From contig CH464491.1 in NCBI GenBank assembly GCA_000002445.1, positions 768,001 through 832,000 on the forward strand: a stretch of DNA of 64,000 bases, given 5' to 3'. The DNA comes from Trypanosoma brucei. Lineage: Eukaryota. The first letter of the stretch is position 1. Each line of letters opens with the position of its first letter. Shown here one piece after another: positions 30,896 through 55,528 of this stretch. The notes beneath the pieces were generated by a model. The model made no database searches. It was not told the DNA's origin and saw nothing but the letters and a program-made list of their open reading frames with translations. A program made the position numbers and the translations under genes.

Positions 30896-31696
30896 TTACC
30901 GTGAAGGGTAATGTTGCAACCTTTGAGGCGAGGGCATCGCATCACCAACAGTCTCCAACTCAACACCCTCCGCCGCTGCGTCATCAAAAACTGGCGGAAC
31001 TCCTCCCACTTTCCCGTTAGCCTTTCGCGTCGCTGAAGATGTGCCAAAAAAAAGGGCTGGAGAAGCGGAGTCACGCGCAGCGCGGGGAAGTTCATCCAGA
31101 AGTCCCGTATCCTCATCTACATCGTCAGCAGATATACCCGAGGCATCTTCGTAATCATCATCGCCAGAGGTTTCATTGTCATATTCAACTTCCCTCTTGC
31201 TATCATAATCAATATCAACACCACCAACATCTTCCTCATCCCTTCCGACGTCGCTAAACCCGTCACCAGATGCAGCAAAGATACTTACGAGACTAACCTC
31301 ACCACCGCCGCTTTGACTGCTGCAACCAATTAAAGTGCCGCTCATAACATCCGTGGGTTCCGATTCCATCACAGTTCCGCTACTGTTCTCATCAGAAGAG
31401 GTAAAACCGCTGTCAACCTTAATATCAACACTATCATAACGGTAATGATTCATATTATTTTTGTGCTCATCAGTACTGTGCCAAGCGGGCCACCCCGAGC
31501 CCACATCCACAAACATATCCTCAACGCTTACTAAAGGACGTGTGGCGGTATTTGTCGTCACATCACCCCACAAAGTGGCTGCCGCACGTGAATCCTCTGT
31601 TTTATGTTTTGACAAAATAACTAAACTGTCAGATATCATTCGTCGGTGCCCATAGCGGAAGGAAGAAACAGTAAGAGCAGCACAGCGGAGCACCAT
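30896..31696 (-). CDS. hypothetical acidic S/D/G-rich protein
   Basis: 266-aa ORF in the cluster orientation. The sequence is D/E/S-rich (DEEDVGGVDIDYDSKREVEYDNETSGDDDYEDASGISADDVDEDTG) and probably disordered. Confidence 0.45.
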   Translation of the reverse strand: MVLRCAALTVSSFRYGHRRMISDSLVILSKHKTEDSRAAATLWGDVTTNTATRPLVSVEDMFVDVGSGWPAWHSTDEHKNNMNHYRYDSVDIKVDSGFTSSDENSSGTVMESEPTDVMSGTLIGCSSQSGGGEVSLVSIFAASGDGFSDVGRDEEDVGGVDIDYDSKREVEYDNETSGDDDYEDASGISADDVDEDTGLLDELPRAARDSASPALFFGTSSATRKANGKVGGVPPVFDDAAAEGVELETVGDAMPSPQRLQHYPSR

Positions 31697-33214
31697 TAAT
31701 AAAATATATCACAAAGCGGCACCAGGCGTTACGCGGCGTTACAGTTCCTGACCTTGTGTCTTCCAGGTAGGGGCGACTAACCTCCGCGATGTTCCTTCTT
31801 TTCTTTCTTTTCTTTTTCTTTTTTTTTTTACTTACCCCCTTTTCTCTTGCTTCGTATTCGTTTAAAGATGTGGCCGTATGGAGGAAGTTAGAGTTACCGC
31901 AGTGCCGCACGGTTTCGCCTCCCCACCTCCCTCCCTTCAGACACGCACACACACTTCCGTTGCTTTCACCTCTCGTATCCGCAGTAAAGGGGAAAAAGCA
32001 ACAAAGAAGTTACTGTACTACCTTACAAAAATAAATAAATAATGTGTTATAAGTAGTAGTGTGGAAATAAAACAAAACAAATATTGACAGAGAATTTACT
32101 GCAATCAGCGGTAGGGAACACTGGATAAGCATAAACCCATAGGCACCAGTAAACAGAGGATGAGATAAGGAAGGGAAAAGCGCACAATTACAAAATACAC
32201 AAGAAGACATCGTGTGTAATCATCACGCGTGTCAACATGTCGTGCAGCCAAGGGGAGTTCCCCTGTTTTTTTTCTTAAAAAAACAATTTGAAAAGTGGGT
32301 GATTAAATAGTTTGACTTTTTTTTTCCTTGCTAATTTCTCATAGTGTTGGCCTGCTCTCAAATATAATGTTTCTTTCATGTAAAAGATGGGAAGGGAAGA
32401 GAGTAAACGAAGGTATTTTTTTTAAAAAAAAAAGTACTGAGGTAAAGTAAGAGGGTAAAAATAAAGAAACGGTGAGCGAAGGGGGAAAAAAGGGAAAAAG
32501 AATTTATGGCAAGTGCGGTAGTCAGTACAATAAATAATAATAATAATAAATAAACTACTGCACTACATCAAAGAAGTTGAGAGTCTACATACCGAACAAG
32601 TAAAAAAAAAAAAGACAACAACACCAAACGCGCATTTTTATGAAATTCTTCTTTTTTTTTTTACCATTCGTATTATTACAATATTTCAAATAAAAATAAA
32701 AATAATAGTAATAATATGAGTGGTAAAAGTGATAAGGGTACTAATGATAATTTTAAAAAACGGGAAGAGAAAAAGTAAGAAGAATAATAATAAACAAAAC
32801 ATGTGGACTGCGGTAAAGGAAAATACATAACAACACACAAATACCTTCGAATACATAGGTAGAAAGTGTAGAAATAGAAGCAAAAAGAAATAAATAAAAT
32901 GTGGGGGGGGAAAGAGAGAAAAAAAAAAGAAGAAAAGAAAGAAAAAAAACGGAGAGCACAATCAAATGAAGGCAGTTAATACTCAAACACCGTTTTCAGA
33001 TTATGTGTTTGTGTTCACTCCCGAAGCTCTTCCTTCAAATTCCCCCCCTCCCCCCCCCGCATTTACTCTATAATTTTCTTTTTCTTTTCTTATTCCTTCT
33101 TTACCGTCACTATTCCTCAGACTTCTACCGTTTTTTTTTCTCATCTGTTTTTTTTTTTAAAATAATTCTGATTTGCACTTTTCATTTTCTTCCTCAACCA
33201 ATAGACACACAGAA

Positions 33215-33260
<46 letters not shown>

Positions 33261-35613
33261 TAATTTATATTAATTTATATTTATATAGACAGACAGACAA
33301 ATATATGTATAAATACATATATTGTATTTCTTCATCTAATATAAATCCTCACAGGGTCGGGTATTGCATTGAAACACAAAGAAACCAAACCTGAACTTCG
33401 TCATAAAGGAGTAAAGCAAAACAATAAACAATAAGAATAATAATCTGAAGAAGAAGGAGGAGGAGAAGGGGGACAGAATGCGCATAAATAAGCATGCGGA
33501 CGCGTATTTGAACATTAATAAATGAAAAAGAAAAAGAGAAAAAACAAGAAACACAAATAACAGTTCATTGTGTTAAAGAGCGATTGACAACGTTCAAACA
33601 AACAAAAAAAACAAGAAGCTGAAAAGAAAGAAAACGAATATTCTGATAATGAAACAGTATCGTTTATCGATTCGTTTATTCATTTATTCCCGATGTTTCC
33701 ATCTTAAATACCCAAATACAAACACATTCTGCCCTGTTGTATTGCCTTGCTTGCTCTAATCACATATTTTCCTCTTTTTTTTTTTTCAAAAAAAAAAAAA
33801 GAAATTCTTTTCGTTACTTTCGTAACACTTCCCTAAAGTAAAGGTACCAAAACATAATCACTTTTATACTCATTAAATGAGTGGAGAGTCGTTTATTTCT
33901 CATTCCCTTCACTTCTTTCTGTTTTATTTCTTTCACACACACTTTGTTGATTGTTTAATTTATTGATTTTTTTTCATTAGCTAGTTTGGTACTCAAAGAG
34001 AAAACAAAAACAAAAACAAAAAAGAGAGTTGTCCAACATATTTTGGACAAAAAGATTTTTTTTTCTTTCGAATTAACCAAACTTAATGAAATATTTAAAA
34101 CACAAAATGAAAAGGAAAAGAATTCATCAAAACAAAAAAAAGTACAAAAAAACAAAAAAAGAAAAAAAGAAAAACACCACATCAGCAGTGCCAGCCAAAC
34201 ACGCGCATGAAATGTTGTGGAAAAAGGCAATGAGCATTGGTGAATATGAGGTGATCGGAAAAATAAAATAAAACAACGGTTACAAAAAAAAAAAGGGGGG
34301 GTGGAAAAAAAAAAAAAAAGAAAACATGTCACAACTAACTTATCACCACTTATTCATAAGGTTTACTTATACAAATACTATTTAACGGGGGGAAAGTAAA
34401 AAAAAACTCTATGTCATTTATTCATTCTTTAACTCACCTATTTACTTCATTTACTTTTTCTTCATACTTTACTTCACCGGTCACAGCCGTAACAAAAAAA
34501 AAAAAGAACAAACAAACAAACAAACAAATGGCAAGAACCACTTAAATAAACGCTCCTTCTCAAGCAAACACATACGCAGAAGCTGCCCGCATTCCTCTGC
34601 AATTCAACACGGAGCCTTCACAATAATAATAATAATAATAATAACAGAACGAGGAAAAACAAAAAAAAAAGCAACGAAAAGAAGAAAAGAAGAATAGAAA
34701 AAAAAAAAAGAGCATCGCTCACTGACTCTATGATAATAATAACAATAATGAAAATAAAGTAGAGAAGAAATTTGCCACATGGAATGGATGAAGCAGCGGA
34801 TCTTCATAACGCTGCCACTATTTATTTACTTCTCCCAACTCGGGCATTATTTTTCTTTTTTTTTGTCGTTGTTCTGTTTGTCCACCGCTGCGGTGAGTTG
34901 TAAGGGTAAAAATAAGGAAAGACTGGATGGGCGAGGGATTAAATAAAAATGGAAAGAAAAAAAAGTTAAAAGGCCGCACACAAATAATAAAAGCCTGAAG
35001 AGAGAACGAACTAAAAAAAAAGAGAGAGAAATGCAAACACACACACCTACATTTCTATTCGGTAAGCATCAACACTCTTGAAGTTACTCGCACGAGTTTT
35101 TGAATACATGTTATTTTTCCCTTCCCCCCTTTTCTCCGTCCCAACTATTTTACTGCACCAAAACACCGCGGTAAGGAGCTGCGGCACATCGCATAAGCAC
35201 CTGGAAGCGGCAGAGGTGTAACAATAAAGTAATAATCATAATAATAATAATAACAGTGGTGATAATTATTTTCATCCGCTTCCCACTTCACCTGTCACCT
35301 CTATTTCACTGGTGACGGTACAGTCGGCGGCTTAGAAATAAAACTGTCATCTCGTTCAGTTCACGCAATGCAACACAAACAAGCTTTCTTTATTTTTTTA
35401 AATTCATTTCACCCACTCCCTCCCCCATGCGTATGTACAAATATATATATATATATATATAAGAAGAAAGAGATACCCAAAGGCGATGATGAAAAAAAGG
35501 CGACAAACATGTGCGCGTATGCACCAATCGTGAGAGAAATGTACCATGAAACAAATACTCACATTGGTACATCAGACTCATTGAGGGGTGAAGGCGGCAC
35601 AATATGTGGTCAC
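31697..35613 (-). other. 3.9-kb ORF-free, low-complexity region (probable long 3'UTR of the WD40 gene plus intergenic spacer)
   Basis: Neither strand has an ORF with non-degenerate composition. The region is rich in A/T runs, (CA)n, (AT)n, (ATA)n and homopolymer tracts. Confidence 0.6.
33216..33260. repeat. compound (CA)12(AT)10 microsatellite
   Basis: 'cacacacacacacacacacacacac' is followed by 'atatatatatatatatatat' within the 3.9-kb ORF-free region. Confidence 0.95.
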
Positions 35614-38277: not shown

Positions 38278-39798
38278 ACAAACAAAGGGCGCTTAGTCAA
38301 GACTTTCGCGATAATAACGAGCGAAGTTACAGTATCGCCCCTCCCCTCAGCAATGCGCGTACACGCACAAAAAAGCAACTTGTGCGCTGTTTTGCTGATT
38401 TTGCCGCAGATACACCCTTTAATAATGGAAAAAAGACGAATGTTTCGCTTTATGGGTAAACAAGCACCACCAAAAATCAACGGGGGCACAAACAAACCCA
38501 ACCACCCCGTCGATTTCGAAAAAGTAAAAAAAAAAACGAAAACTCAACAAAAAAAAATATTCTTTCGATTGAAGGCTGAAAAGCCCCTGGTTTCCTTCCC
38601 TCCTGAAATTCAAATTTTTATCTCCCTCAAAATCAACGAGAGGAAAACGAACCGGCAGATAGTTGAAGAAGGGAAGTGAATATATGGGGAAGTGTATTCA
38701 AATATCTTATCCACCTTCCTTACCCTTACCCCCCTTTTTTTTCCACCGGCAGCTAACAAACAACAAAATCTGTGTAATGTGGCTGATGACACGCCCCTCT
38801 GGGTAGATTATCGTTGCTGTTGCTTTTGCCTTGATAAAGGTGAAGCGATGGAAGCAAAAAAAAAAAAACTGTATGAAATATATGTTCAAACTGTTATATG
38901 TTGAACTTACTCTATGGCAATGGTCCCTATGGTGGTCCGGAAGGGAGGAAGAGAGACAGAGAAATGACTTTCACTCGTATCCTCTACCGCTACGAATGTC
39001 GCAACCGAATTTAGTCACTGAAATGTACCAAATGCTATGCGTTTAAATAAATAAATATATATATATATATCCTTATATGACCTTAGCAGAAGAACGACGA
39101 GGATTGGCACAAGTGCTTTCCCTCTTTCCTCACCTTCCCCTTTTGTAACCACTATTAAATATTCCCTTTTATTAAAATATTTGTATCTTTTTTCCTCCTA
39201 CTGTGTTTCCTTCCCTTTCGGGTTTGCTCTCAAGTAAGTGCAGTCCTTTTTTTTTCTTTTTGCTTTTGGAAACAGGTGTATTTCTGTTGTTGTGGCTGTT
39301 GTTGACACAATAAGATAAAATATAAAATAATCTCGTTTTTCCCCCTTTAACCCAAAGAGAAGTCTCACGCTATACAGCAACAACACAAAAAAACGGTGAG
39401 AAAGTATACACAGAGTTGTCTTCCAATACAAAAAGAAAAAAGAAAAATGAAAACCGAAGGAGGGAAAAGAAACCACCTTTCAGTTGGGTTTCGTCGTGTT
39501 GAAATGTTGAGGTTGAGATAAAGGAGGGGGGAAAGAAAGAGAAAGAAGAGAAGAAATGGATTTAAATAAGAAAGCTGCAGATCGTATTAAAACAGGAAAG
39601 CATCGAGTAGCAGAGTTTCTGACATTGACATAATAAAGAAGGGTAATGCTTTACTTATGACAACAGTAACAGCAGTAGTACAAGCAAAACTCGCAACAAC
39701 AACAACAACAATCAAAAAATTAAATAGGCATGTTAAGGGCAGCACAGCAAAACGCACGCGCGCCCAAAAGCCGGAGTATCTGTTTATTCACTGCAATA

Positions 39799-40116
39799 TC
39801 ATTCATCTACCAATTCTGTAAAGAAACCGGGACGCCATTCGCCTTTTTGTGAAGGTGGAAGAGCGAAGAGGGGACTCGTCACAGGCAACACAATAAGCGC
39901 CACAACATACCAAAGCAACACCACAAGTCCACCCACGACAGACAGTCGCAGCGAAGTGTTGGTGTACCAACGTATTGCCGCGCTGTGCTGGGCGTGGTGG
40001 CGAAAGAAAAGCCACGTCGTGAACCACAACAATGGCAACCCCGCAAAACCACTGTAGAAATATATTCTACAGAGGCGCTCCGCTCGAGGAATATTCAACG
40101 GTCCAGTCGTAAGCAT
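39799..40116 (-). CDS. PEN2: gamma-secretase subunit PEN-2 (presenilin enhancer 2) homologue
   Basis: The 105-aa ORF 'MLTTGPLNIPRAERLCRIYFYSGFAGLPLLWFTTWLFFRHH...' aligns with human PEN-2 '[41 protein letters not shown]...'. It has the same length class, two hydrophobic segments and the conserved C-R-x-Y(Y/F)xxGF(A)xLP(L/F)LW core. Confidence 0.65.
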   Translation of the reverse strand: MLTTGPLNIPRAERLCRIYFYSGFAGLPLLWFTTWLFFRHHAQHSAAIRWYTNTSLRLSVVGGLVVLLWYVVALIVLPVTSPLFALPPSQKGEWRPGFFTELVDE

Positions 40117-40522
40117 TTGTCCCCTTCGCTACCTCCTTCCGCGTGAAAAGGTTATAGTAAATGAACTCGCCGATACTAGAAATAGTCGTTCGACCGACTA
40201 ACAACTCCTTTTGATTTATTGAGCTTTTGGCCTTTATTTACCTTCAAACAACACTAGCAATAAGCAATTGCGCTCCTCCCCCGTTCCTTTTAATTGTGAT
40301 TGGGCAACACGCCTTCTCACCTATTTGAGAAAGAGCTGAATGAAAACAAAAAAAAAGAGCATTAGAATAATGGAGTGAGCGATCATGGTGCGAAGAGGGG
40401 TGTAAGTGAACAAATAACACGGGTCATAACAACGGTGCAGGCGGTTCTACAAGTCCTCAAACTGAAGTCGGCCACAAGAAACAGTGAACACTGAAAACGA
40501 ATGCACAAAGCAAGACAAAAAG

Positions 40523-45198: not shown

Positions 45199-45783
45199 TT
45201 ACAAAGCGCGTTTTTTTTCCTTATCTCTCCACTCTTTAAGCCCTCGCTCAAAGACTCCACCCACCATTCCATTCGGGCAGTAAATGCTCGTAACGCCGAT
45301 GCTCGAGACGTGACCGATGTTGTCCTGCTGATTATCAAAGAAAATAAAGTCAGAAAAATCACCCCTTACAGTCGGATCGTGCTCTTTCACTTTCTTAAGA
45401 ATAGTACGGTGCTGATTTTTCTTGTTTGCCTTATATATTTCCACTAAATCACCGAACAGAGAAAGCATTGGCACATCATTTCCTCTCTTGTCTCTGAACC
45501 GAAACAATTGCAGCAGTTCCATCGCCCATCGCGGCTCATCACAAGTAGAAGATATCGCCAAATGGGTGTTCCGCCATTCCTCAGTTGTGCTCAGCATTTG
45601 CAGCAACTCCCGCGTTTGACCAATAAGACGCACTTCCGTCCCTTTTTTATCAATAGCAATGCTTGAGTTATCTTTCGACAGCATAAAGGGAGCGCCACCA
45701 CCCCAAAGTTCATACATCTCAGGCCTCCACAATGTGCCATCAAGATCAAAAACAATAACACGAGGGGTTGGCTCAGTACTCAT
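45199..45783 (-). CDS. magnesium-dependent phosphatase-1 (MDP-1)-like HAD-superfamily phosphatase
   Basis: From the Met at 45783 the protein begins 'MSTEPTPRVIVFDLDGTLWRPEMYELWGG', the HAD motif I 'DxDGTLW' as seen in MDP-1. It is about 194 aa, the typical MDP-1 size. The upstream 48 codons of the maximal ORF are Y/I/N-rich junk and were excluded. Confidence 0.65.
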   Translation of the reverse strand: MSTEPTPRVIVFDLDGTLWRPEMYELWGGGAPFMLSKDNSSIAIDKKGTEVRLIGQTRELLQMLSTTEEWRNTHLAISSTCDEPRWAMELLQLFRFRDKRGNDVPMLSLFGDLVEIYKANKKNQHRTILKKVKEHDPTVRGDFSDFIFFDNQQDNIGHVSSIGVTSIYCPNGMVGGVFERGLKEWRDKEKKRAL

Positions 45784-47264
45784 TATGTCAGTGAGATCTC
45801 TCAAATGCAAGTAATTATAATATACAATACAATATATAATTATATAATTATATATTGTACAGTTATATTTATAGCGTATGCGCGTTTCCTTTCGTGTAAG
45901 GAGGAGATATATAGAAAGAGATGACAAAAGATAAAAATAAAGAAAGATAGAGAGCTAGGAGAATTTGGAGCGGAAGACCATACACAAATAGAACTGCGTT
46001 GAGAAAATACATAGAACAATCATTTGAAGGAAAAAAGAAAGAGGAAAAGAAGTAATTTTGAAGTGGTACGAAACCGTCAGCCACGTGGGTGACGCAGAAA
46101 GAAGAAGAAGATACGAAAAAAAAACTGAAAGTGACCAAGTAGGTGAGAAACGACAACAACAAAAAAAAATGTCTAACACATAATAATAAAATGGTGATAG
46201 TAGTGATTGCAAGGGTGGTAAAAATGATAACAGTAATGATAATAGTGATGGTAATAATAATAATAAGGTAAGGGGGGAGAAACCACTAATTCAGGGATAT
46301 AAAAAGTAGCAACTATTCTTTCAGTTGTTATTTTTCTTTTCTTCATTGGTTGTAGCATTCATTTTTCTTGTGTTCCCATATATATATTTTTCATGTTCTT
46401 GTTTTCTTTTCTTTTTTTTAAAAAAAACTGTACTGATCGCCTTTGTCTTGGCTTATTAGTGTTGTCGTTTCTTCCTTTTTTTTTTCCAAACCCTCTTCCC
46501 TTCCTTTTATTTGCTTTGTTTCACCCACTTTCGTATACAATCCCATCATACTTTGCCCAATATTTTATTTTTGTTTATTTTAATTCTTCTTTGTAAGTTG
46601 TTTTCTCGCCAGAAAGTGCGCAGTTTTGCAGCTGACTTGACTGACGATGGCACCGGAGCGATCAACAGCCCCTGGATATCTAAACATGATTGTAATTGGT
46701 TAATATCAATTTTAAAAAAAAAAAACATTTTGAATATTTACAACAGTGTTAAACATCACCAATATTAATATTAATAATAATAACAAGAAAGAAAAGAAAA
46801 GATGTAATAAGACCACTTACCCCCCTCCCCTCCCCTCCCTTACCAGTCATTAGTCTGATTTTGTAATTTCTTCCCTCCCCCCCTTTTTTTTTTATTTGCA
46901 CACGTGTGTGGAAAAGGGCGGGAAAAAGGAAACACAACACAACACAACAAAATAAAATAGAATAGAAGGAAAGAAAAGGAAAGGAGAAAATACTGATCAA
47001 AACCCGAATACAAAAAGAAAACGTCTTGAAGGCGGATGGAAGAGGCCAGACTCCGCAGGTAAAGTAAAGAAAAAGTATTTTTTTTTTTTGTGCAGGGAAA
47101 AAATAAAGGAAAATTTACCCACACACAAACACACAAACACACACACACACACAAAGACAACGAAACAGATCGAAAAATAGATAGAAAGACCACAGGAAAA
47201 AAAAACATACAGACAGACAGACACAATTTTTTTTTTTTTAAAGCTGTACATGTAAGCATAAGAA

Positions 47265-47296
<32 letters not shown>

Positions 47297-47447
47297 CGCA
47301 TTTACACACAGTGAACGTGCTCATGAAACACTCACATAAACAAACACCAAAAATAACAGTTTAGTTTTCTTCCCTTTTAGTTGCTGTTACTGTTGCATGT
47401 TAATCTAATTATTCTTTCTTTTTTCTTTCTTCTTGTCGAGGCACGAT

Positions 47448-47476
47448 CACAAACACAAACACAAACACAAACACCC
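47448..47476. repeat. (CAAACA)5 hexanucleotide repeat, with adjacent CA-rich tract at 47120-47153
   Basis: 'acaaacacaaacacaaacacaaacac' is seen directly. Confidence 0.85.
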
Positions 47477-49804
47477 AAATAATTAAAAAAAAAAAGAAAA
47501 CAAGCACAAGTAAATACAAAAGTGGAATTGAAAGATAGAAAAAAAAACAGATAAACAAATAAGCGAATGAGAGCACAATGCGGGTTTGACATATCACGAT
47601 AAAAAAAAAATTCACATCATATATTCACTTGGGAGAGTGTACTGCGGTAAACACCACAACAACAGAAGAAGAGAAAGAGAAAAAGGAGTGCTTTAAAAAT
47701 AATGAATAAATTAATCATTTAATTATCAATTTATTTATTCATTAAAATTAAAAAATTAAAAAAACAAAACGAAGCAAAATAGTTCAGAAACATAACAATA
47801 GCTACTTTTTTTTCTTATTTATTTATTTTTGATATCACCCATTGTTACTTTCGACCTTCTTTACACCATTATTATTATTATTATTATTTATGCATTAAGG
47901 ACGTCCCATTCCTTACGGGGCGACCCCTTTGATATCAAAGTGCTGTGGTTACCTTTCTTTATATTATATGATTTAATGTATATTATTTATCCTCCTTTTA
48001 TCTCTTTTTTTTTTTTTTAAGACCGTAATATTTTGTCTCATATCTCATTTATTACCGCATCTTTTCCTCCTCCTCCTTCTCCTTGTCCTTTTCGCGATAC
48101 ATACGCCCAATGACAAAAGAAAAAAAAAAAGGAAACAAATAAATAAATAAATATAAAAACACCCGTACAGTTACCGCCATTTACTGAAGAAAGGAGATTT
48201 GTTTGAGAAGGTATAAAAAGGGGGGAAAAAAGAAGAAAGATGTTACAGATAGGTGGTAAAAAGATCTGGGGAAAATAAATAAATATTTTATACGTATATG
48301 TCTACATACTTTTGAAACATATATGTACATCTACAAATTAAATAAAATTTTTTTAAAATGCCATGAGCAACCCTTTAAGAACTTAAATGGAGAGGGTTCC
48401 CCCTAATCAAAACAAAAATAACACAAAAACAATAATAATAATAATAATAATAACTCACTTCAACTGACGTACCGGCGGTTGCTTTGAACTTTTTTTAACC
48501 AAAAAAAAAAGGAAAATAAGCGCGTCGCCCCTCCAAACCCTCATACTTGTACTTTATCAATTTGTAATTCCTGATCTTCTGTCTTTACAGAAAAAAAAAA
48601 AGAATTATCATTATTTGTTTCTTCCTTCTATCTTCCTTTTTTTTTTACTGTTTGATCTCACCGTTTTAATTTTATTTCTTCTTTTCTTCCTGCTTTTGAC
48701 GGAAAGGCTGAATTCTACAAAATTTGCCTCTATACATGTGTCCACTAGAGGTATCATTTACGTGACTTTATTTACACGCCTTCCTTCCTTCCTTCCGTCA
48801 CACACTCTCTCTCTCTTTTTTTCTCCTTTTCTCCTCTTTTATATTTAAAAACAAAATAACATGTTGGCGCCGTTTTGTTTCGTTTTATTTCACCTCTTTC
48901 TTTTATATGATCCACACCTTTATTGTATGGGGGGGGGAAATAACTGGAAACAGACAAACAAAAAAAAAAAGAACCACCTATTTTGTATAAGTGTGCGGAT
49001 ATGCGCGTGTCCTGTGAGTATTTATTTCCCTCTCCTCAACGTTTCCCACTACTTTATTTATTCTTTTCCTCAAAAACAAAATCAAAAACCAAAAGCAATA
49101 CACACATATATAACATGTAAATATATATATATATATGTATGTATATAATGTCGCGACACATCGTTAATTATACCCATCGCTCAATCATCTCCCCGTTCAT
49201 GAAGTTAATTTCTCCACCACCTCTCCAGAGACAAGCATATCCATTCATATATAAATAAATATATAAATATATAATAAATTTAATATATATATATATTTAT
49301 ATGTGCGTGTGTGTGTGTGTGTGCATGGATGCATATATAAATGTAAACATACACGTCAACGTATTCGCTTTCTCCACAGAAACACAGACACACATCACCA
49401 CACTATCATACAGCAGCAAAATAGTTTTTAAAGTATTTAAAAGGAAAGTTTATATACACAGCCACACTTCACACAATTGAAGTATCACATCACTTTTGTT
49501 TTAATTTATTTAAATAACGACTCCTTTACACTTTTTCACTCATTTACTCATCCACTTGTTCACTCGTTTCTTTGTTGTTGTTGTTGTTGTTGTTTTTTGA
49601 TTTCTTTATTTTTTTCCCCCCGTTTCTTTTACTCTTTTTCTTCGTTCCTTATATCACTCCGGAATTCTCCCTTTTCCCTTTTCCCTCCATTCACTACTTA
49701 AAAGTGTGACGATTGGAGAGAAAAATACTTTTTTTTAAAAAAAAAAAGGAACGGGGAATCCGTGGGAGAGACTAAAAGCGATTGAACTAATAAAAATGAT
49801 GATG

Positions 49805-49856
<52 letters not shown>
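49805..49856. repeat. (ATA)17 trinucleotide microsatellite (preceded by (GAT)3)
   Basis: A perfect 'ataataata...' run within the 5.8-kb ORF-free region. Nearby is a (TGT)8 run at 49572-49594. Confidence 0.95.
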
Positions 49857-49857
<1 letters not shown>

Positions 49858-51754
49858 TGTAATTATAATAATTATTACAACTATTATAATTATAATAATA
49901 ATAATAAAGTGGTGTATAAATAAATATATAAATATATATATAAATATATATAGATATAGATATAAGTAAAACAGAAAAAAAAAGACATAAAAGTGAGCTA
50001 CTCGGTAATGGAGAAAAGAAGCGGAATATACGTCGCGCTCATTTCACACATCACATCCGCGACATAATCGAAAATAAAAGAAAAACAAAACAAAACGAAA
50101 GAAAATCATGAAAACGGAAAAAGGGAAAAAATGAGAAAAGGGTAAGTGATGTGCACAAAAAAAAAAAAATCGTGACAGCAAAAAAAAAAACAAAAGAAAA
50201 CAAAAGCGCACTCTTTGACTTCCTTCTGCGCATACATCATTAAGGTAAAAAAAAAAAGAGGGATAGAAGAGAAACAGTTAAAATAAAAAAAAGAAGGTAA
50301 AAATAACGAAAGAAAAACAACATCAATAACAATAAAAGTAATAATAATAATAAAGAAAAAAAAGAGTTTTCAAAGAGGTCACACAAATTTGGTCACACAC
50401 GTCCCTCTTCCACACCACTTGCCGCTTTTTTTTCTTTTACTTTTTCTCGTCCCATCACTTCTCTTCTTTTTCTTTGTTTTCCTCCAAACAAAACAAAACA
50501 AAAAAAAACCTCGCCCGCACCCAATCAAACATTTAGTTTTCTTTTACCTCATGCACCTTCCCTCACACCCATCCGGAAAAAAAAAAGCGTACACACGCAA
50601 CCAAAAACGCCAAAAAAAAAAATGAGTAAGTAAATAAATATAAATGAATGTAGATATAAATATAAATATTCATATAATAAACGTGATACTTTGATTTATT
50701 CATCTACTCCCTTCAACCGCTCATTGACACACGTAACATAAAACAAAAATAAAAAAAACACCAACACACTACTGAATACCCATCGATCCCAATTCCTCAC
50801 GTTAAGTTCCCCTCCTTCAATCATTATAATCTTAACAGTCACAGCGCAGGGAAATTTTAAAAAAAAAATAAATCAACTGCAAAAAAAAAACCGTTTCTTG
50901 TTGATACTGGCGTTGTTGTTGTTACAGTTTTCTTTTTTCTTCCAAGGTATTGTTACTGTTGTTGCTGCTCTTTCTTTTTGATTTGGCTCCGTTTTATTCT
51001 TTTCTCATTCATCTCCTTCATTTATCTCGCATCACACATTTTTCTCCGCTTATACGTCCTTCCTCTCTCTCTCCCTCTCTTCTTCACCTCTTGTTACCAT
51101 TGCAGGCATCTGTTGACGATGAATTAAAATGTGAGAAACGCAAAAAGATGAAAAAGTTGAATAACAAAAGACAAAAGCATAAAGCAAAAGCAAAAACAAC
51201 AAAAAACAAAAAAAACAACAAAGGAAAAAAAGATGGTGAAACAATAGGTAGGACGTAGAAGCCAAATTTAGTGAAGAAAATTTGAGTGGGGAAGCACAAC
51301 CTTGCATGCAAGTTAAGAGCGACAGGGTTAGATGGGGAAGGAGTAAAAAAAAAAACGAAAAGAACCCAGTTGAATTACATGCTTTGGAAAGTGGAAAGAG
51401 CTAGAGCAAAAAGAAAAAAAAGGAACAGATGCGTAAGAAAACAAGGAAACCGGTGAGGGAAATGATAAAAAAAAACAAAAGATAAAAGCGAGCGAAGAGA
51501 GAGAGAGAACCGGATGGGAAGAAGAGGGAAGGGAATGGGTGAAAACAGGGGCGAAAAAGCGAAGTGGGCAAATGGTGTGGGCCGAATGTGACACTGCCTC
51601 CGTCCACGACAATGACCGAGTTATTAATGAACATACCACACAAAAGGGAAGGGGGGGGGAAAAGCAAAGATGGAAAACAGGGAGAGAAAAAAGAAAACGA
51701 AGACAAAAAAAGTTATAAAGAAAAAAAAACAATGGGAGGGCGCATTGCCCTGCG

Positions 51755-54136
51755 CTACACGAAAGTCCACACCCGCGCAACGCCGTCCTGTGAAGCCGTT
51801 ATAATCCGCCGCTCCACAGAATCCACGCGAATGCCACGCGAAAGTCCCTTCCACGCTTGCACATGGCCACCCAACACTTCGCCCAGCTTCCTCACATCCC
51901 AGAGATATAAATTCTCGCCCACACTACCGGCCATGTACATATCGTTTACATGCAAACCAGTTACGTATCCTCTAAGCTTCAATGTATGTGTTATATCCGC
52001 AGTGGACGTGCTGTTCGGTGCAATACCAGCAACTGGTTTTGGTGTGCGGTAATCCCAGGACAGGATAGTACTATCAAACGAACCGGTGAAAAAGTTATTG
52101 CTGTTCCGCACCGTCAGGGCTGGAAGCTTGCGTGTGTGCGCGGCAAACTGTACGACAGACAAACCCACATCCACATTAACAGCCATCACCGTCCCATCAC
52201 TACCTCCTACGAGTGCAACGGGTTCATTCCCAAAAGCATCCACAACTTGTGCATTAGCGGGGATGGAAATCCGCATGGAAGTATTCCCACCGCCGCGGAG
52301 AAGAAGCAACTCATGTCGCAGCCCCCCGAGTAGTAAAAATGGATATTGCGAACCGAGGCTTTTTACGTACGACAGACAGTAGGCATCATTACCAAGTGAA
52401 GCCGTGTAAGATGGTGTTAGCACGACGTCCTCTCCGCAGTCCAAATCGAAGGCCCACTCAACACACGTGCCGTCTTCACACGCAGTGGCGAAATGAAACT
52501 TGTCGTGGGAACTGAGATCCCAAATGGAACTGTCATGGACGTGGGTTTGCAACAGAGACTTACCAAATCGGTCCACAAAGTACACATTTCCCATGGAGGA
52601 GCCCACGGCAAAACGCCCGTCCTCACCAGCCACGTCTACGCATAGAAACCTATCACCCGGTACACCCGAGAAAGTGGCGCAGAGGGCCAAACGGCCATCC
52701 GATAAATGTTCCTCCCTCACCAGTTGTGTCTCGATCACTTCACGAGGGGCGATCTCCACTACATCCACTGCAGCATTAATTCGCACACGCCGTTTGCCCC
52801 TGCCTTGGCGTCCCGGATCATCTCGGTTCTCAGAGGTTTCACCAATGGTACAAAAGGAGCCCCCAGTAACGACACGATCCCGCGTCATGGAAGCTGTCAT
52901 GGTGTGTGAAAGCACTGTTAACGATGTGGAGAGGGACGACCGGACCTTCACCACCCGAGCGTGGTTTATGAGAAACCGTGGGAAGTGTGGGTGTGGTTCT
53001 AAGCATATAATGACCCTCGCCTTCGGGTTAAACCCCTCAAAGTTGCGCGCCCTTGCTTCCCTCATCAGATCCTCAAGTACGCCACAAGTGGATATGGACT
53101 TGTGAGCGTTCACCATGACGAACCATTTACCCTCCGTCATGGCGGATACGAACTGCTCTCCAAACTCCTCCGGTCTTGTTCTCCGGCGAAGCTTCGCGCC
53201 GAGATCAACTGTCAGAACGCTAGCTCCCATCTTTGCTGCAGTGAACTCCAGCTCAGCAATTGGATTCACATCTTGGTAAACACAAATAATGCACGAACCT
53301 ATTTCAACGCCATCAAGAGCAGCGGCTAAACTTCGTCGAATGGTACGTGAAGAAGATGCGGGACGGTGGCTCGACGAAGTCACCCCATTCGCGGAGTTCA
53401 TGTCGGATCCCCTTCCCAAAACTTTTAGTTGCTCAAACTCCAAAAGTGATGGCGTCAGGCCCTCGGTAATCGACCCGGCTTCCTTTCCAGGAATTTGGTT
53501 GACTTTACCGCTTAGCTCTGGTAGAGAAAAATTACTGAATGAGAAAGCCAACTGGGAGCCGCCTTCGTCATGCCCCACTTCAACTTCGTCACTGCATCTC
53601 TTCGCCACACTCGGAAATGAGATGGCGGCAGAAACGGATTCCGCCGGTGAGGACGACGCAGAAGACACCAAACTTGATGGCTTCTCCACATCGCTCTGTC
53701 GCTTGCCATTGGCGACTCGATTCCGCTGTGTCTCAGTTGGATTCTGTGGAGCAACGCTACTGGACACACCATTACACTCCACACTACCCCTCAATTCAAC
53801 CCTCTCACCGTAGCAGTCAACCCTCTCGAATGCAATCAGTACTGTATTCCCCCTCCGTGAATGCAGAAGCTCCCGCAATTCACCGCTATCCGTTACCATA
53901 TGACCATCCACGCCCACTATGCGTGTGCCGAAGCAAAGTTTTGACTTAACATCCTTATCCCCATCGGAGGCATGACATTCGATACGACAGTCAGCCGAGA
54001 TACCTACAGTTGCCACTAGACGTTCTACAGTTGTTACCACAATGTCCTCCGTTCCGGGTTCCATAGTTTCCCCAAGGCAGCAAAAACCTACGTGCAGTAC
54101 GATGTTAATAAGCGAACCAGCAAGTGGGAATCGCAA
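51755..54136 (-). CDS. hypothetical protein with N-terminal PDZ-like segment and C-terminal WD40 repeats
   Basis: 793-aa ORF. 'GTRIVGVDGHMVTDSGELRELLHSRRGNTVLIAFER' is PDZ-like. The C-terminal WD units include 'ILSWDYRTPKP', 'LYLWDVRKLGE' and 'ASQDGVARVWTF'. The start could instead be the Met at 54064 (METEPGTEDIVV...). Confidence 0.55.
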   Translation of the reverse strand: MRFPLAGSLINIVLHVGFCCLGETMEPGTEDIVVTTVERLVATVGISADCRIECHASDGDKDVKSKLCFGTRIVGVDGHMVTDSGELRELLHSRRGNTVLIAFERVDCYGERVELRGSVECNGVSSSVAPQNPTETQRNRVANGKRQSDVEKPSSLVSSASSSPAESVSAAISFPSVAKRCSDEVEVGHDEGGSQLAFSFSNFSLPELSGKVNQIPGKEAGSITEGLTPSLLEFEQLKVLGRGSDMNSANGVTSSSHRPASSSRTIRRSLAAALDGVEIGSCIICVYQDVNPIAELEFTAAKMGASVLTVDLGAKLRRRTRPEEFGEQFVSAMTEGKWFVMVNAHKSISTCGVLEDLMREARARNFEGFNPKARVIICLEPHPHFPRFLINHARVVKVRSSLSTSLTVLSHTMTASMTRDRVVTGGSFCTIGETSENRDDPGRQGRGKRRVRINAAVDVVEIAPREVIETQLVREEHLSDGRLALCATFSGVPGDRFLCVDVAGEDGRFAVGSSMGNVYFVDRFGKSLLQTHVHDSSIWDLSSHDKFHFATACEDGTCVEWAFDLDCGEDVVLTPSYTASLGNDAYCLSYVKSLGSQYPFLLLGGLRHELLLLRGGGNTSMRISIPANAQVVDAFGNEPVALVGGSDGTVMAVNVDVGLSVVQFAAHTRKLPALTVRNSNNFFTGSFDSTILSWDYRTPKPVAGIAPNSTSTADITHTLKLRGYVTGLHVNDMYMAGSVGENLYLWDVRKLGEVLGGHVQAWKGLSRGIRVDSVERRIITASQDGVARVWTFV

Positions 54137-55528
54137 CGATGGTAATTAGAAGGGAGTGCTAATTTACTCTTCCCGTTTAATAATCCCCTTCCCCCAACGG
54201 CACACGCACAAATCGGCACAAATTTAGCTGCTTACGACAGCAGCACACCTCAAGGAACACAAGTCCCACAGTCCTTTCCTCACGGGAACCACCCACGGCG
54301 GCACTCTGTCGCTCCCGCTAATAACTATTGTTGTTGTTGTTTTTGTTTTATTTTCTCTCTGCTCTTCTGTTAGCCGCCTCTTTCGTTTTTCAGCCTGCTC
54401 GCCCGCGTGGTGGTAGCCAGACTGACGGGTACTTGGTGATTGGTATGACTTACTGTTTTGATATATATAACAAAGAAAAGGGAAGGAACGATGGTCAAGT
54501 TGGGAAGAAAATGGGTGAAAAGGCCCTAAAATGGGATGAACTAAAGGAAACACACCAAGTGCCACGGCGGGGTGGGGAGAAAGACGGCTGCGGTAGTGGC
54601 AAAGGCAGTGAAAAAGAAACAACAATTTGGGAAAAGGGAGAGGAAGCGGCTTATTGGATTGCAGCAAGGTACCCTCTGCCGCTCCTACCATACTCGTTCC
54701 CACCATTTCAGCCAAACAGTGGGAAAGTAAAAAAAAAAAAGAGAACTCCTCATCGCCTTTTTTGTCGCCCTTCACCACATTTGCCTTTTTTCATCTGCTG
54801 TTTCTTCTCTACAACTTTTTTTTCACCTTGTCTCCCCCCCCCCCGTTTCGGGTTGCCATTTCGATCGCACAAATGTGTCCGCACGATAACGAAAGGTATT
54901 TTGAAACCTCCCACCGCCACAACATCATATTAGTTTCTTTATTTCTTCCCTCTTTCCATCCTTCATAACACGCCTCTAAAACGAAACAAAAAGAACAGCA
55001 GGGGTCGACTCAAGACATATACAGAGATAAAAAGAACAACAATTGCGTAGCAGGTGGGGGGAAAAAGAATAATGAGGTGGTGGGTAAAGAAAAGTGAAGT
55101 AAGGGGGGGGATGTGAAAAATAATTGAAGTAAGATGGCACACGTACAGATCTAGTCTACTTGATTTTCCATACAAATGAAGAAACAAAGAAAGTATGCAC
55201 GTAACAAAAGTTCAATGAACACTAAAGTCACGCTGAAAGGACGAAGGACAAACCCCATCCACAAGCGGCGTGTCCTTATAATGAGTGACTTGTACTTTCC
55301 CGCTTCACGGAGAACATAACCAAACAGGAGAAAAAAGATAAGAAAAAAGTGTTTAATGTTGCGCAGGTGGAGATATTCGCACGAAACGCAAAAATGTCAT
55401 AACAACACCATCATCATCAACACTCGAATAGTCGAAACGCTCATCATTCCCATCATTATGATCACAACCGCCCTCTCTGCTTTGTTTTCTGTCACCTTTT
55501 ACCTTAACACGTCTAAGGAAGTTAATGA

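What the first reader, a model, noticed from the sequence alone, without database searches (positions are those of the whole stretch)
45928..51754. 5.8 kb ORF-free stretch inside a unidirectional gene array: candidate very long regulatory 3'UTR, internal transcription start region, or unannotated ncRNA locus
This is the longest gap in the window and separates the MDP-1-like gene from the PDZ/WD40 gene, both on the minus strand. It contains no non-degenerate ORF on either strand but many microsatellites: (ATA)17, (TGT)8, (CAAACA)5, CA-rich blocks at 47120-47153, and alternating kb-scale purine-rich and pyrimidine-rich domains. In T. brucei, internal (non-strand-switch) transcription start regions within head-to-tail gene arrays are marked by H2A.Z and GT-rich sense-strand sequence. 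The CA-rich plus-strand blocks here are GT-rich on the sense strand. A 5.8-kb 3'UTR is also possible and would itself be exceptional.
Basis: partly seen in the sequence, partly recalled or inferred. Interest (0 to 1): 0.55.

Follow-up and report, generated by a model that had tools for sequence, protein, structure and literature searches.

The report
Long non-coding spacer at lost-gene site
This 6-kb gene-free stretch of Trypanosoma brucei chromosome 11 is repeat-rich non-coding DNA transcribed within a long gene array, at the spot where an ancestral gene was lost; it is not a transcription start region, and part of it gives an RNA that is more abundant in the parasite's transmission ("stumpy") stage.

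Summary
Window 45784-51754 (5,971 nt, minus-strand sense) is T. brucei TREU927 chr11 813,784-819,754, between Tb11.02.0380 (PDZ/WD40) and an MDP-1 phosphatase gene. It is the longest gap in the window: GC 0.32, 25% tandem repeats, and only low-complexity ORFs that shift frame between subspecies.

Interpretation, part by part:
- Internal TSS: not supported. Kolev 2010 places the window inside one unbroken transcription unit. Sense-strand GT content (0.56) equals other spacers (0.51-0.61).
- Known ncRNA: none. No Rfam, tRNA or C/D-box hit.
- One constitutive 5-kb 3'UTR: does not fit. A sense array probe in the gap (46998-47067) is 3.6-fold stumpy-enriched, while the WD40 CDS probe is flat or opposite (Kabani 2009).

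New point: other trypanosomes and a distant metagenomic kinetoplastid carry a conserved 340-410-aa gene "X" exactly here. T. cruzi and probably L. major keep C-terminal relics; T. brucei and T. vivax keep nothing.

Best reading: a decayed, repeat-expanded, co-transcribed spacer giving the WD40 3'UTR plus at least one separately regulated non-coding RNA or alternative-processing product. This is a known kind of locus, so interest is low to moderate.

The parts
51755..54064 (-). Upstream gene: PDZ/WD40 protein, 769 aa (Tb11.02.0380, UniProt Q386M5). Its stop codon opens the gap.
   Evidence: Translation and Pfam WD40-type hits. Kabani 2009 supplement gives Tb927_11_01_v4 complement(819755..822064), which is window coordinate + 768000. 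The CDS array probe maps to 51894-51963.
45784..51754 (-). The ORF-free, AT-rich, repeat-rich non-coding stretch: 5,971 nt, GC 0.32, 25% tandem repeats.
   Evidence: No Rfam or tRNA hit. No protein relic of gene X by six-frame hmmsearch.
51386..51740 (-). Two very long polypyrimidine tracts (99 and 179 nt) starting 15 nt after the WD40 stop codon, followed by AG dinucleotides and a purine-rich block (51154-50955). Candidate internal trans-splice and polyadenylation module 1; inferred only.
   Evidence: PolyY/AG scan and 200-nt composition profile. The function is inferred from Kolev 2010 rules: polypyrimidine tract median 18 nt, poly(A)-site-to-splice-site distance median 142 nt.
50070..50366 (-). 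Second pyrimidine-rich block (125 and 137 nt tracts) with AGs at about 50227 and 50039. Candidate processing module 2; inferred only.
49788..49964 (.). Largest microsatellite cluster: (TAA/ATA)n about 40 copies including a perfect (ATA)17, followed by (TATA)n. Length-polymorphic between Trypanozoon genomes.
   Evidence: Indel columns are concentrated here in the four-genome alignment.
47433..47688 (-). Polypyrimidine tracts (a perfect 25-nt tract at 47688-47664, and 47573-47485) with the next AGs at 47643 and 47433. Candidate splice-acceptor region for the RNA that carries the array probe; inferred only.
   Evidence: and the sequence.
46771..47259 (-). Spurious annotated ORF Tb11.02.0370 ('hypothetical protein, conserved'; 162 aa in v4, 139 aa in this window).
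   Evidence: Coordinates from Kolev Table S2 and Kabani supplements. Listed among ORFs with no transcript of their own in procyclic forms. Reads 139, 98, 88 and 9 aa in four Trypanozoon genomes.
46998..47067 (-). 70-nt sense-strand microarray probe that reports a stumpy-enriched RNA from the distal gap.
   Evidence: Exact single match. log2 versus stumpy: 1 h -0.73, 6 h -1.14, 18 h -1.47, 48 h -1.35, slender -1.85 (adj P 0.095). It is one of 65 'stumpy-enriched' transcripts.
46355..46554 (-). Purine/A-rich block (74% purine) just upstream of the MDP-1 polypyrimidine region. Predicted polyadenylation zone of whatever RNA ends the gap; inferred only.
   Evidence: and the sequence. Kolev spacing rule.
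45890..46330 (-). Pyrimidine-rich region with AGs at 45995 and 45890. Predicted trans-splice signal and roughly 100-200-nt 5'UTR of the MDP-1 gene; inferred only.
45199..45783 (-). Downstream gene: magnesium-dependent phosphatase-1 / HAD IIIC, 194 aa (Q386M6, XP_828367).

Best explanation
The stretch is non-coding spacer that RNA polymerase II reads through as part of one long polycistronic unit starting about 70 kb upstream. It has no promoter of its own.

It lies where an ancestral kinetoplastid gene ('X', a 340-410-aa coiled-coil protein with a conserved C-terminal motif) sat between the PDZ/WD40 gene and the downstream genes. In the salivarian lineage X decayed beyond recognition. The remnant drifted to low GC and expanded through microsatellites and homopolymers.

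The primary transcript is cut by the usual coupled trans-splicing and polyadenylation at some of its 15 polypyrimidine/AG signals. This would give the 3'UTR of the WD40 mRNA, the short 5'UTR of the MDP-1 mRNA, and at least one additional non-coding RNA or alternative-processing product. That product includes 46998-47067 and accumulates in stumpy forms independently of the WD40 coding region.

Shown: the stretch is non-coding, no TSS is recorded, synteny and loss of X, and a discordantly regulated sense RNA exists.

Inferred: where the RNA ends lie, that the distal RNA is a separate molecule, and any function.
For: Identity and mapping.
- The window is 98% identical to T. equiperdum.
- The MDP-1 protein equals TREU927 XP_828367.
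- Five independent anchors give v4 coordinate = window + 768000.

Non-coding.
- Only low-complexity ORFs.
- The one annotated ORF shifts frame between subspecies.
- GC is 0.32 and 25% is tandem repeat, resembling the 3.9-kb gap that is a documented 2-3.5-kb 3'UTR.
- Substitution density across four Trypanozoon genomes is 27/kb, like other spacers (24-30/kb) and unlike CDS (3.5-6.8/kb).

No promoter.
- Kolev Table S14 shows a single unit, Tb11.02.0730 to Tb11.22.0001.
- GT content is not above background.
- No tRNA gene nearby.

Gene loss.
- X lies between the WD40 and MDP-1 orthologues in T. theileri and T. grayi.
- X is also found in T. rangeli and T. conorhini.
- X lies directly after the PDZ/WD40 gene in a distant metagenomic kinetoplastid with the same kinesin-WD40-X-930aa-PEN2-WD40 order.
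- Relics remain in T. cruzi (E 2e-12) and probably L. major (E 0.1, same strand, same terminal '...FS[FY]N-stop').
- No relic in T. brucei or T. vivax, and no salivarian homologue among the hits of a profile search of 5.8 billion proteins.

RNA.
- The gap probe is stumpy-enriched, whereas the WD40 CDS probe reads slender +0.42, 18 h +1.21 and 48 h +0.77 relative to stumpy. That is a 2.1-2.7 log2 discordance.
- 15 polypyrimidine tracts (2.5/kb) offer internal processing signals.
- Kolev reports 394 genes whose 3'UTR is alternatively processed into a shorter mRNA plus a putative non-coding transcript.
- Guegan 2022 reports 1,428 intergenic, low-GC, SL-spliced and polyadenylated lncRNAs.
Against: - No transcript ends are mapped here. 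Kolev's procyclic data call no novel SL-spliced and polyadenylated transcript in the gap, and no poly(A) site is listed for Tb11.02.0380.
- The nanopore novel-lncRNA table has no entry starting at chr11 814-819 kb. That table lists only lncRNAs new to that study, and I assumed v5.1 coordinates equal v4.
- The RNA evidence rests on a single 70-mer per feature, in one microarray study of another strain (AnTat1.1), with adj P 0.095 for slender versus stumpy. Cross-hybridisation or global-normalisation effects in quiescent stumpy cells cannot be excluded. The authors themselves suggested 'noise' as one explanation for such probes.
- The discordance is equally explained by stage-specific alternative polyadenylation of one gene.
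- The gene-loss history does not by itself explain why the T. brucei gap (6 kb) is larger than whole orthologous intervals that still contain X (2.7-3.6 kb).
Confidence: 0.55

Rival explanations
1. The whole stretch, down to about 46400, is one constitutive 5.3-5.5-kb 3'UTR of the PDZ/WD40 mRNA. It would be a long regulatory UTR like that of RBP10.
For: - T. brucei 3'UTRs reach about 6 kb and 7.3 kb for RBP10; 'some have 5 kb or more'.
- ORF Tb11.02.0370 has no transcript of its own, and such ORFs are 'often part of the UTR of a neighbour'.
- No novel transcript was called in the gap in procyclic forms.
- The neighbouring 3.9-kb gap with the same composition is a proven long 3'UTR.
Against: - The distal probe and the CDS probe differ by 2.1-2.7 log2 units across stages.
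- Two polypyrimidine tracts of 99 and 179 nt begin 15 nt after the stop codon and would be expected to trigger processing.
- No poly(A) site is mapped for this gene.
- The longest UTRs are said to belong mostly to RNA-binding proteins and kinases, which this gene is not.
Confidence: 0.2
2. An internal (non-divergent) Pol II transcription start region lies in the gap, marked by GT-rich sense-strand sequence and H2A.Z.
For: - 57 non-divergent start regions exist in T. brucei, and GT-rich coding-strand elements can drive transcription.
- The gap contains (TG)n and (GTTTGT)n blocks on the sense strand.
Against: - Kolev Table S14 lists no unit boundary here, and that table includes all histone-marked sites.
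- G+T on the sense strand is 0.56, within the 0.51-0.61 of all other spacers.
- GT skew is a general property of the coding strand.
- No tRNA gene is adjacent.
Confidence: 0.03
3. The stumpy-enriched RNA is a 5'-extended isoform of the MDP-1 mRNA, trans-spliced about 1.3-1.9 kb upstream of its ATG.
For: - 5'UTRs up to about 2.5 kb occur.
- The probe lies only 1.2 kb upstream of the MDP-1 ATG.
- PPT/AG candidates lie at 47643 and 47433.
Against: - A 430-nt pyrimidine-rich region with AGs lies immediately upstream of the ATG and is the expected dominant acceptor.
- An A/purine-rich block at 46355-46554 looks like a poly(A) zone between the probe and MDP-1.
- No expression data for Tb11.02.0360 could be retrieved.
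Confidence: 0.1
4. The gap hides a real gene: a small protein (for example Tb11.02.0370, with a predicted GPI signal), or a snoRNA or other structured-RNA cluster.
For: - The longest ORF exceeds global shuffles.
- The ORF was annotated 'conserved' with a GPI-anchor prediction.
- T. b. gambiense also has an ORF called here.
Against: - The ORF is frameshifted in every close relative and is a low-complexity pyrimidine-tract artefact.
- No Rfam hit at gathering threshold. E-value hits are AT/TG repeats far below threshold.
- No C/D-box candidates: 0 observed against 0.24 expected.
- Eight higher-complexity or otherwise selected segments (six from the complexity screen, plus the probe region and one GC-richer stretch) fold no better than shuffles, z -1.3 to +1.1.
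- No conservation with T. vivax, T. theileri, T. grayi, T. cruzi or L. major.
Confidence: 0.04

Closest known systems
T. brucei intergenic lncRNAs and 'novel transcripts' (Kolev 2010, PMC2936537; Guegan 2022, PMC9200285)
   Same: Located between genes inside a polycistronic unit, sense strand, low GC, no coding potential, normal polypyrimidine/AG signals available, and stage-dependent abundance.
   Different: No SL or poly(A) ends are mapped for this locus. It is absent from Kolev's procyclic list. I could not check whether it is among Guegan's 1,428 because no supplement is held.
Very long trypanosome 3'UTRs, e.g. RBP10 at 7.3 kb (PMC8982893), and alternative 3'UTR processing (394 genes in Kolev 2010)
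   Same: Multi-kb AT-rich sequence downstream of a stop codon. Internal processing can yield a short mRNA plus a downstream non-coding RNA.
   Different: The upstream gene is not an RNA-binding protein or a kinase. The CDS and distal probes are not co-regulated.
Non-divergent (internal) Pol II transcription start regions (Siegel 2009; Kolev 2010; Wedel 2017, PMC5579346)
   Same: Lies within a head-to-tail gene array and contains some GT repeats.
   Different: Not in the published list of units. GT content is at background. No tRNA gene.
Unitary gene loss leaving a transcribed relic (pseudogene-derived non-coding RNA)
   Same: Conserved synteny pinpoints a lost gene. Graded decay across lineages: intact in T. 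theileri, T. grayi, T. rangeli and T. conorhini; C-terminal relic in T. cruzi and L. major; nothing in T. brucei and T. vivax. The stumpy-enriched RNA lies where X's mRNA would have been.
   Different: No residual sequence similarity in T. brucei, so descent of the RNA from X rests on position only.

Membership tests
T. brucei lncRNA (criteria of Guegan 2022) | No coding potential and no conserved ORF | tested here: met
   Only low-complexity ORFs. The annotated ORF shifts frame among four Trypanozoon genomes. No homologue or relic.
T. brucei lncRNA (criteria of Guegan 2022) | A discrete transcript longer than 200 nt carrying a spliced leader and a poly(A) tail | tested here: inconclusive
   Signals are present. 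No such transcript was called in procyclic forms, and none among nanopore-novel lncRNAs. Guegan's tables are not held.
T. brucei lncRNA (criteria of Guegan 2022) | Detectable, often stage-regulated sense RNA | tested here: met
   Published array probe at 46998-47067: stumpy 3.6-fold over slender, one of 65 stumpy-enriched transcripts. Single probe, single study.
Single long 3'UTR of the upstream gene | The distal sequence is co-regulated with the coding region, being on the same molecule | tested here: not met
   The CDS probe and the gap probe differ by 2.1-2.7 log2 units in slender, 18 h and 48 h samples relative to stumpy.
Single long 3'UTR of the upstream gene | Mapped poly(A) site at the distal end and no used internal splice or poly(A) sites | not testable with these tools
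   No poly(A) entry for Tb11.02.0380 in the held part of Kolev Table S13. Read-level data are not available here.
Internal Pol II transcription start region | Histone-variant and acetylation mark, and 5'-triphosphate RNA starts | tested here: not met
   Tested only through published lists. Kolev Table S14 has one unit spanning Tb11.02.0730 to Tb11.22.0001, and the authors state all histone-marked sites are included.
Internal Pol II transcription start region | GT-rich coding strand above local background | tested here: not met
   G+T is 0.56 against 0.51-0.61 in the 19 other spacers of the window.
snoRNA cluster or other Rfam family | Covariance-model match, or C/D boxes, or unusually stable fold | tested here: not met
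   No gathering-level hit in the whole window. Only repeat-driven sub-threshold hits. 0 C/D candidates. Fold z-scores -1.3 to +1.1.
Protein-coding gene (Tb11.02.0370) | Reading frame conserved in close relatives | tested here: not met
   139, 98, 88 and 9 aa from the same ATG in four genomes. 162 aa in the v4 annotation.
Site of loss of gene X | An orthologous gene present at the syntenic position in outgroups and absent here | tested here: met
   for presence. for absence. Relics in T. cruzi and L. major. T. congolense DNA could not be obtained.

The most novel reading that the evidence does not exclude
The distal 1-1.3 kb of the gap (about 47640 to 46400) is a discrete spliced and polyadenylated lncRNA that descends from the transcription unit of the lost gene X. 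After the coding sequence decayed, the unit would have been retained or co-opted as a stumpy-stage-enriched regulatory RNA. That would be an example of a gene-to-lncRNA transition in an organism where transcription is constitutive and only the processing signals need to survive.
Probability: 0.2. Interest if true: 0.5.

Novelty: new member of a known kind. Interest (0 to 1): 0.3.

Why it matters
For genome annotation, the finding removes a tempting but wrong call (an internal promoter) and a spurious 'conserved hypothetical, GPI-anchored' ORF. It flags a locus where the UTR and lncRNA boundaries still need mapping.

For biology, there are two modest points.
- Exceptionally long trypanosome spacers can be scars of gene loss expanded by microsatellites, rather than purpose-built regulatory UTRs. 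Here the decay series is visible across lineages.
- The scar still gives a stage-regulated RNA. This fits the observation that many stumpy-enriched signals come from non-coding intergenic sequence. It offers a tractable case for asking whether such RNAs are functional or are by-products of constitutive polycistronic transcription.

Tried and rejected
- Hidden gene. Six-frame tblastn and hmmsearch with gene X (2- and 5-sequence profiles) against the T. brucei, T. equiperdum and T. vivax gaps and the whole window gave only low-complexity noise.
- Conserved non-coding blocks. Sensitive blastn of the gap against the orthologous gaps of T. vivax, T. theileri, T. grayi, T. cruzi and L. major, and against the rest of the window, gave only non-colinear low-complexity matches.
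- Constraint within Trypanozoon. A first two-genome comparison suggested faster evolution in the gap. With four genomes the substitution density equals other spacers and only indels are in excess, so I make no claim of special constraint or relaxation.
- Rfam at E<=1. Hits were mir-297-type matches to AT/TG repeats and were rejected.
- tRNA: none.
- C/D-box scan: none.
- Folding of higher-complexity segments: unremarkable.
- Retroposon or dispersed-repeat explanation. There is no similarity between the gap and other parts of the window. A genome-wide repeat search was not possible.
- Literature by identifier. Nothing was found for Q386M6, XP_828367, TCIL3000_11_2570 or the X locus tags. Among Tb927.11.2840-2890, only the KIN-A identifier appears.
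- Supplements. None is held for Guegan 2022, Siegel 2010 or the polysome paper. The Nilsson 2010 supplements do not contain these genes.
- T. congolense locus: not on record.

Full report
**What the window is.** All large ORFs lie on the minus strand. The window is 98% identical to T. equiperdum OVI. The MDP-1-like protein is identical to T. brucei TREU927 XP_828367/Q386M6.

Recognisable genes are a CoA-transferase (ASCT), CDC45, a UDP-Glc-4'-epimerase-like protein, CFAP91, PEN-2 and an 862-aa N-terminal-motor kinesin. KIN-A is Tb927.11.2880; equating it with this kinesin rests on my own recollection that KIN-A is 862 aa.

Published tables fix the coordinates.
- Kolev 2010 gives for Tb11.02.0290 (the CoA transferase) poly(A) positions and UTR lengths that place its stop at v4 770,711, which is window 2711.
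- Tb11.02.0357 stops at 803,614, which is window 35614.
- Tb11.02.0390 is window 54224-54706.
- Tb11.02.0380 is complement(819755..822064), which is window 51755-54064.
- Both Kabani microarray probes match at exactly v4 minus 768,000.

The finding is therefore Tb927_11_01_v4 813,784-819,754. It lies between Tb11.02.0380 (PDZ/WD40) and the MDP-1 gene, which is probably Tb11.02.0360. By order these are probably Tb927.11.2850-2870; that numbering is my inference.

**The observation.** On the sense (minus) strand the WD40 gene ends at 51755 and MDP-1 begins at 45783. The non-coding interval is therefore 45784-51754, 5,971 nt. It is the longest gap in the window, ahead of 3,917 nt at 31697-35613.

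- Every ORF of 50 aa or more is a low-complexity string.
- GC is 0.32 against 0.51 for CDS.
- Tandem repeats cover 25% of the gap, against 4.4% of ordinary spacers and 16% of the 3.9-kb gap.
- Pyrimidine-rich and purine-rich blocks alternate, each 0.2-0.6 kb long.

**Is anything encoded?**
- No Rfam family reaches threshold anywhere in the window.
- At E<=1 only AT/TG-repeat artefacts appear.
- There are no tRNAs and no C/D-box candidates.
- None of eight selected segments, six of them from a sequence-complexity screen, folds better than shuffles.
- The only annotated ORF inside the gap is Tb11.02.0370 (46771-47259). From the same ATG it reads 139, 98, 88 and 9 codons in TREU927, T. equiperdum, T. 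b. gambiense and a fourth Trypanozoon assembly, because microsatellites and homopolymers shift the frame.
- Across those four genomes the gap has 27 substituted columns per kb, like other spacers (24-30) and unlike CDS (3.5-6.8). Only indels are in excess.

**Synteny: a lost gene.** The order kinesin - PDZ/WD40 - MDP-1 - 1036-aa protein - PEN-2 - WD40 is conserved in several species. The WD40-to-MDP-1 distance in each is listed below.

| Species | WD40-to-MDP-1 distance |
|---|---|
| T. vivax | 4.2 kb |
| T. cruzi | about 2.0 kb |
| T. theileri | 3.6 kb |
| T. grayi | 2.7 kb |
| L. major (the stretch held shows WD40 - MDP-1 - a 1476-aa protein) | 4.6 kb |

In T. theileri (TM35_000051510, 413 aa) and T. 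grayi (DQ04_02281050, 367 aa) a gene lies in this interval. The two proteins are 47% identical. A profile search found further members only in T. rangeli and T. conorhini, plus two environmental sequences. No T. brucei, T. congolense, T. vivax or Leishmania protein was found.

One environmental homologue (338 aa) lies on a compact kinetoplastid-like contig with the order ZNHIT3 - 457 aa - kinesin - PDZ/WD40 - X - 930 aa - PEN-2 - WD40. X directly downstream of the PDZ/WD40 gene is therefore ancestral.

- T. cruzi keeps only about 47 C-terminal codons (E 2e-12).
- L. major keeps a weak match (E 0.1) on the right strand and in the right place. It ends '...GPAEELLAALELERDTYSCFSFN-stop', against '...GAEEELMAALEVHYGAFGFFSYN-stop' in T. 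grayi.
- T. brucei and T. vivax keep nothing detectable.

The gap is thus the scar of a gene lost in Salivaria and later inflated by low-complexity DNA. It is now longer than intervals that still hold X.

**Transcription start?** Kolev 2010 mapped 5'-triphosphate RNA. The authors state that the signal was seen at all sites previously suspected from histone marks, including internal ones.

Their Table S14 lists one minus-strand unit, Tb11.02.0730 to Tb11.22.0001, that contains the whole window. The internal starts on chr11 lie elsewhere.

Sense-strand G+T is 0.56 in the gap and 0.51-0.61 in the 19 other spacers. Wedel 2017 notes that G-over-C and T-over-A skew is general to the coding strand. 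The TSS reading is therefore not supported.

**3'UTR or separate RNA?** Long UTRs are known.
- The median is 388 nt, the range extends to about 6 kb, and RBP10 has 7.3 kb.
- The window's own 3.9-kb gap is the 2-3.5-kb 3'UTR of Tb11.02.0357.
- In procyclic forms, Kolev called no novel SL-spliced and polyadenylated transcript in the gap. The nearest are Tb11.NT.31 and NT.32 at window 38382-40335.
- Kolev listed Tb11.02.0370 among ORFs without a transcript of their own. Such ORFs are 'often part of the UTR of a neighbour'.

This favours a UTR-like status in procyclic forms.

Kabani 2009, however, lists Tb11.02.0370 among 65 stumpy-enriched transcripts. Its sense 70-mer maps to 46998-47067, which is 4.7 kb past the WD40 stop and 1.2 kb before the MDP-1 ATG. 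The table gives log2 ratios relative to stumpy forms.

| Probe | 1 h | 6 h | 18 h | 48 h | slender |
|---|---|---|---|---|---|
| Gap probe (46998-47067) | -0.73 | -1.14 | -1.47 | -1.35 | -1.85 |
| WD40 CDS probe (51894-51963) | +0.95 | +0.12 | +1.21 | +0.77 | +0.42 |

I verified the column order of the WD40 row from the separate T6-T1 table. The two probes therefore differ by 2.1-2.7 log2 units in the slender, 18 h and 48 h samples. One invariant mRNA cannot produce that.

The gap contains 15 strong polypyrimidine tracts (2.5/kb, the usual spacer density). Tracts of 99 and 179 nt start 15 nt after the stop codon, and a perfect 25-nt tract with an AG lies at 47688-47643, upstream of the probe. 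Internal processing is therefore plausible. It matches two known phenomena: alternative 3'UTR processing in 394 genes and intergenic lncRNAs.

**Best explanation and limits.** The stretch is co-transcribed, promoter-less, non-coding spacer at a gene-loss site. It is processed into the WD40 3'UTR, the MDP-1 5'UTR and at least one separately regulated non-coding RNA or isoform that is enriched in stumpy forms.

- The RNA ends, the separateness of the molecule and any function are inferred.
- The expression evidence is one probe per feature from one array study, with adj P 0.095 for slender versus stumpy.
- Read-level RNA and ChIP data could not be examined here.

**Verdict.** The TSS reading is rejected, a plain 3'UTR is insufficient, and a regulated non-coding RNA is supported by indirect published data. 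The kind of locus is already known in T. brucei. The gene-loss origin is a small new point. Interest is 0.3.

Noticed in passing
L006 8347-9588; L007 7780-8883; L011 8001-9017; L003 about 9743-9886; L004 about 9305-9394: An uncharacterised coiled-coil gene family ('X') has a strongly conserved C-terminal motif, RLExFYxIYNxEKIxxVxxIIxEYxGAEEELxAALEVHYxAFGFFS. It has no Pfam match and sits directly downstream of the PDZ/WD40 gene. It is intact in T. theileri, T. grayi, T. rangeli, T. conorhini and an environmental kinetoplastid. It is reduced to C-terminal relics in T. cruzi and probably L. major, and absent from Salivaria.
   Followed up: partly
window 31697-35613: The second-longest gap (3.9 kb, GC 0.34, 16% tandem repeats) is the documented long 3'UTR of Tb11.02.0357, the 887-aa WD40 protein. 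Poly(A) sites give 1,985-3,188 nt, and the transcript end is at window 32127.
   Followed up: yes
window 38382-39491 and 39619-40335: Kolev 2010 novel transcripts Tb11.NT.31 (1.1 kb; lies between PEN-2 and the next CDS, coding status not examined) and Tb11.NT.32 lie here. NT.32 covers the 105-aa PEN-2 ORF and is listed among transcripts not arising from a previously annotated ORF.
   Followed up: partly
window 54224-54706: The annotated ORF Tb11.02.0390, between KIN-A and the PDZ/WD40 gene, is listed as having no transcript of its own. It is probably part of the WD40 5'UTR or the KIN-A 3'UTR.
   Followed up: no
window 30896-31696: A 266-aa trypanosome protein matches Pfam PF12608 'Type IVb secretion, IcmS' over the full model at E 4e-43. 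This is an unexpected family name for a eukaryotic protein.
   Followed up: no
window 46820-46842: An (AGGGG)n run on the sense strand, just downstream of the array probe, is a potential G-quadruplex. Its length varies between Trypanozoon genomes.
   Followed up: no
L011 1-15921: A metagenomic kinetoplastid-like contig keeps the trypanosome gene order but has intergenic spacers of only 23-145 nt. That contrasts sharply with the 6-kb T. brucei spacer.
   Followed up: no
window 46771-47259: The v4 annotation gives a 162-aa ORF ending at 46771. In this window the same frame stops at 46840 (139 aa), although flanking anchors keep an identical coordinate offset. The assemblies must differ by compensating homopolymer changes.
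   Followed up: partly
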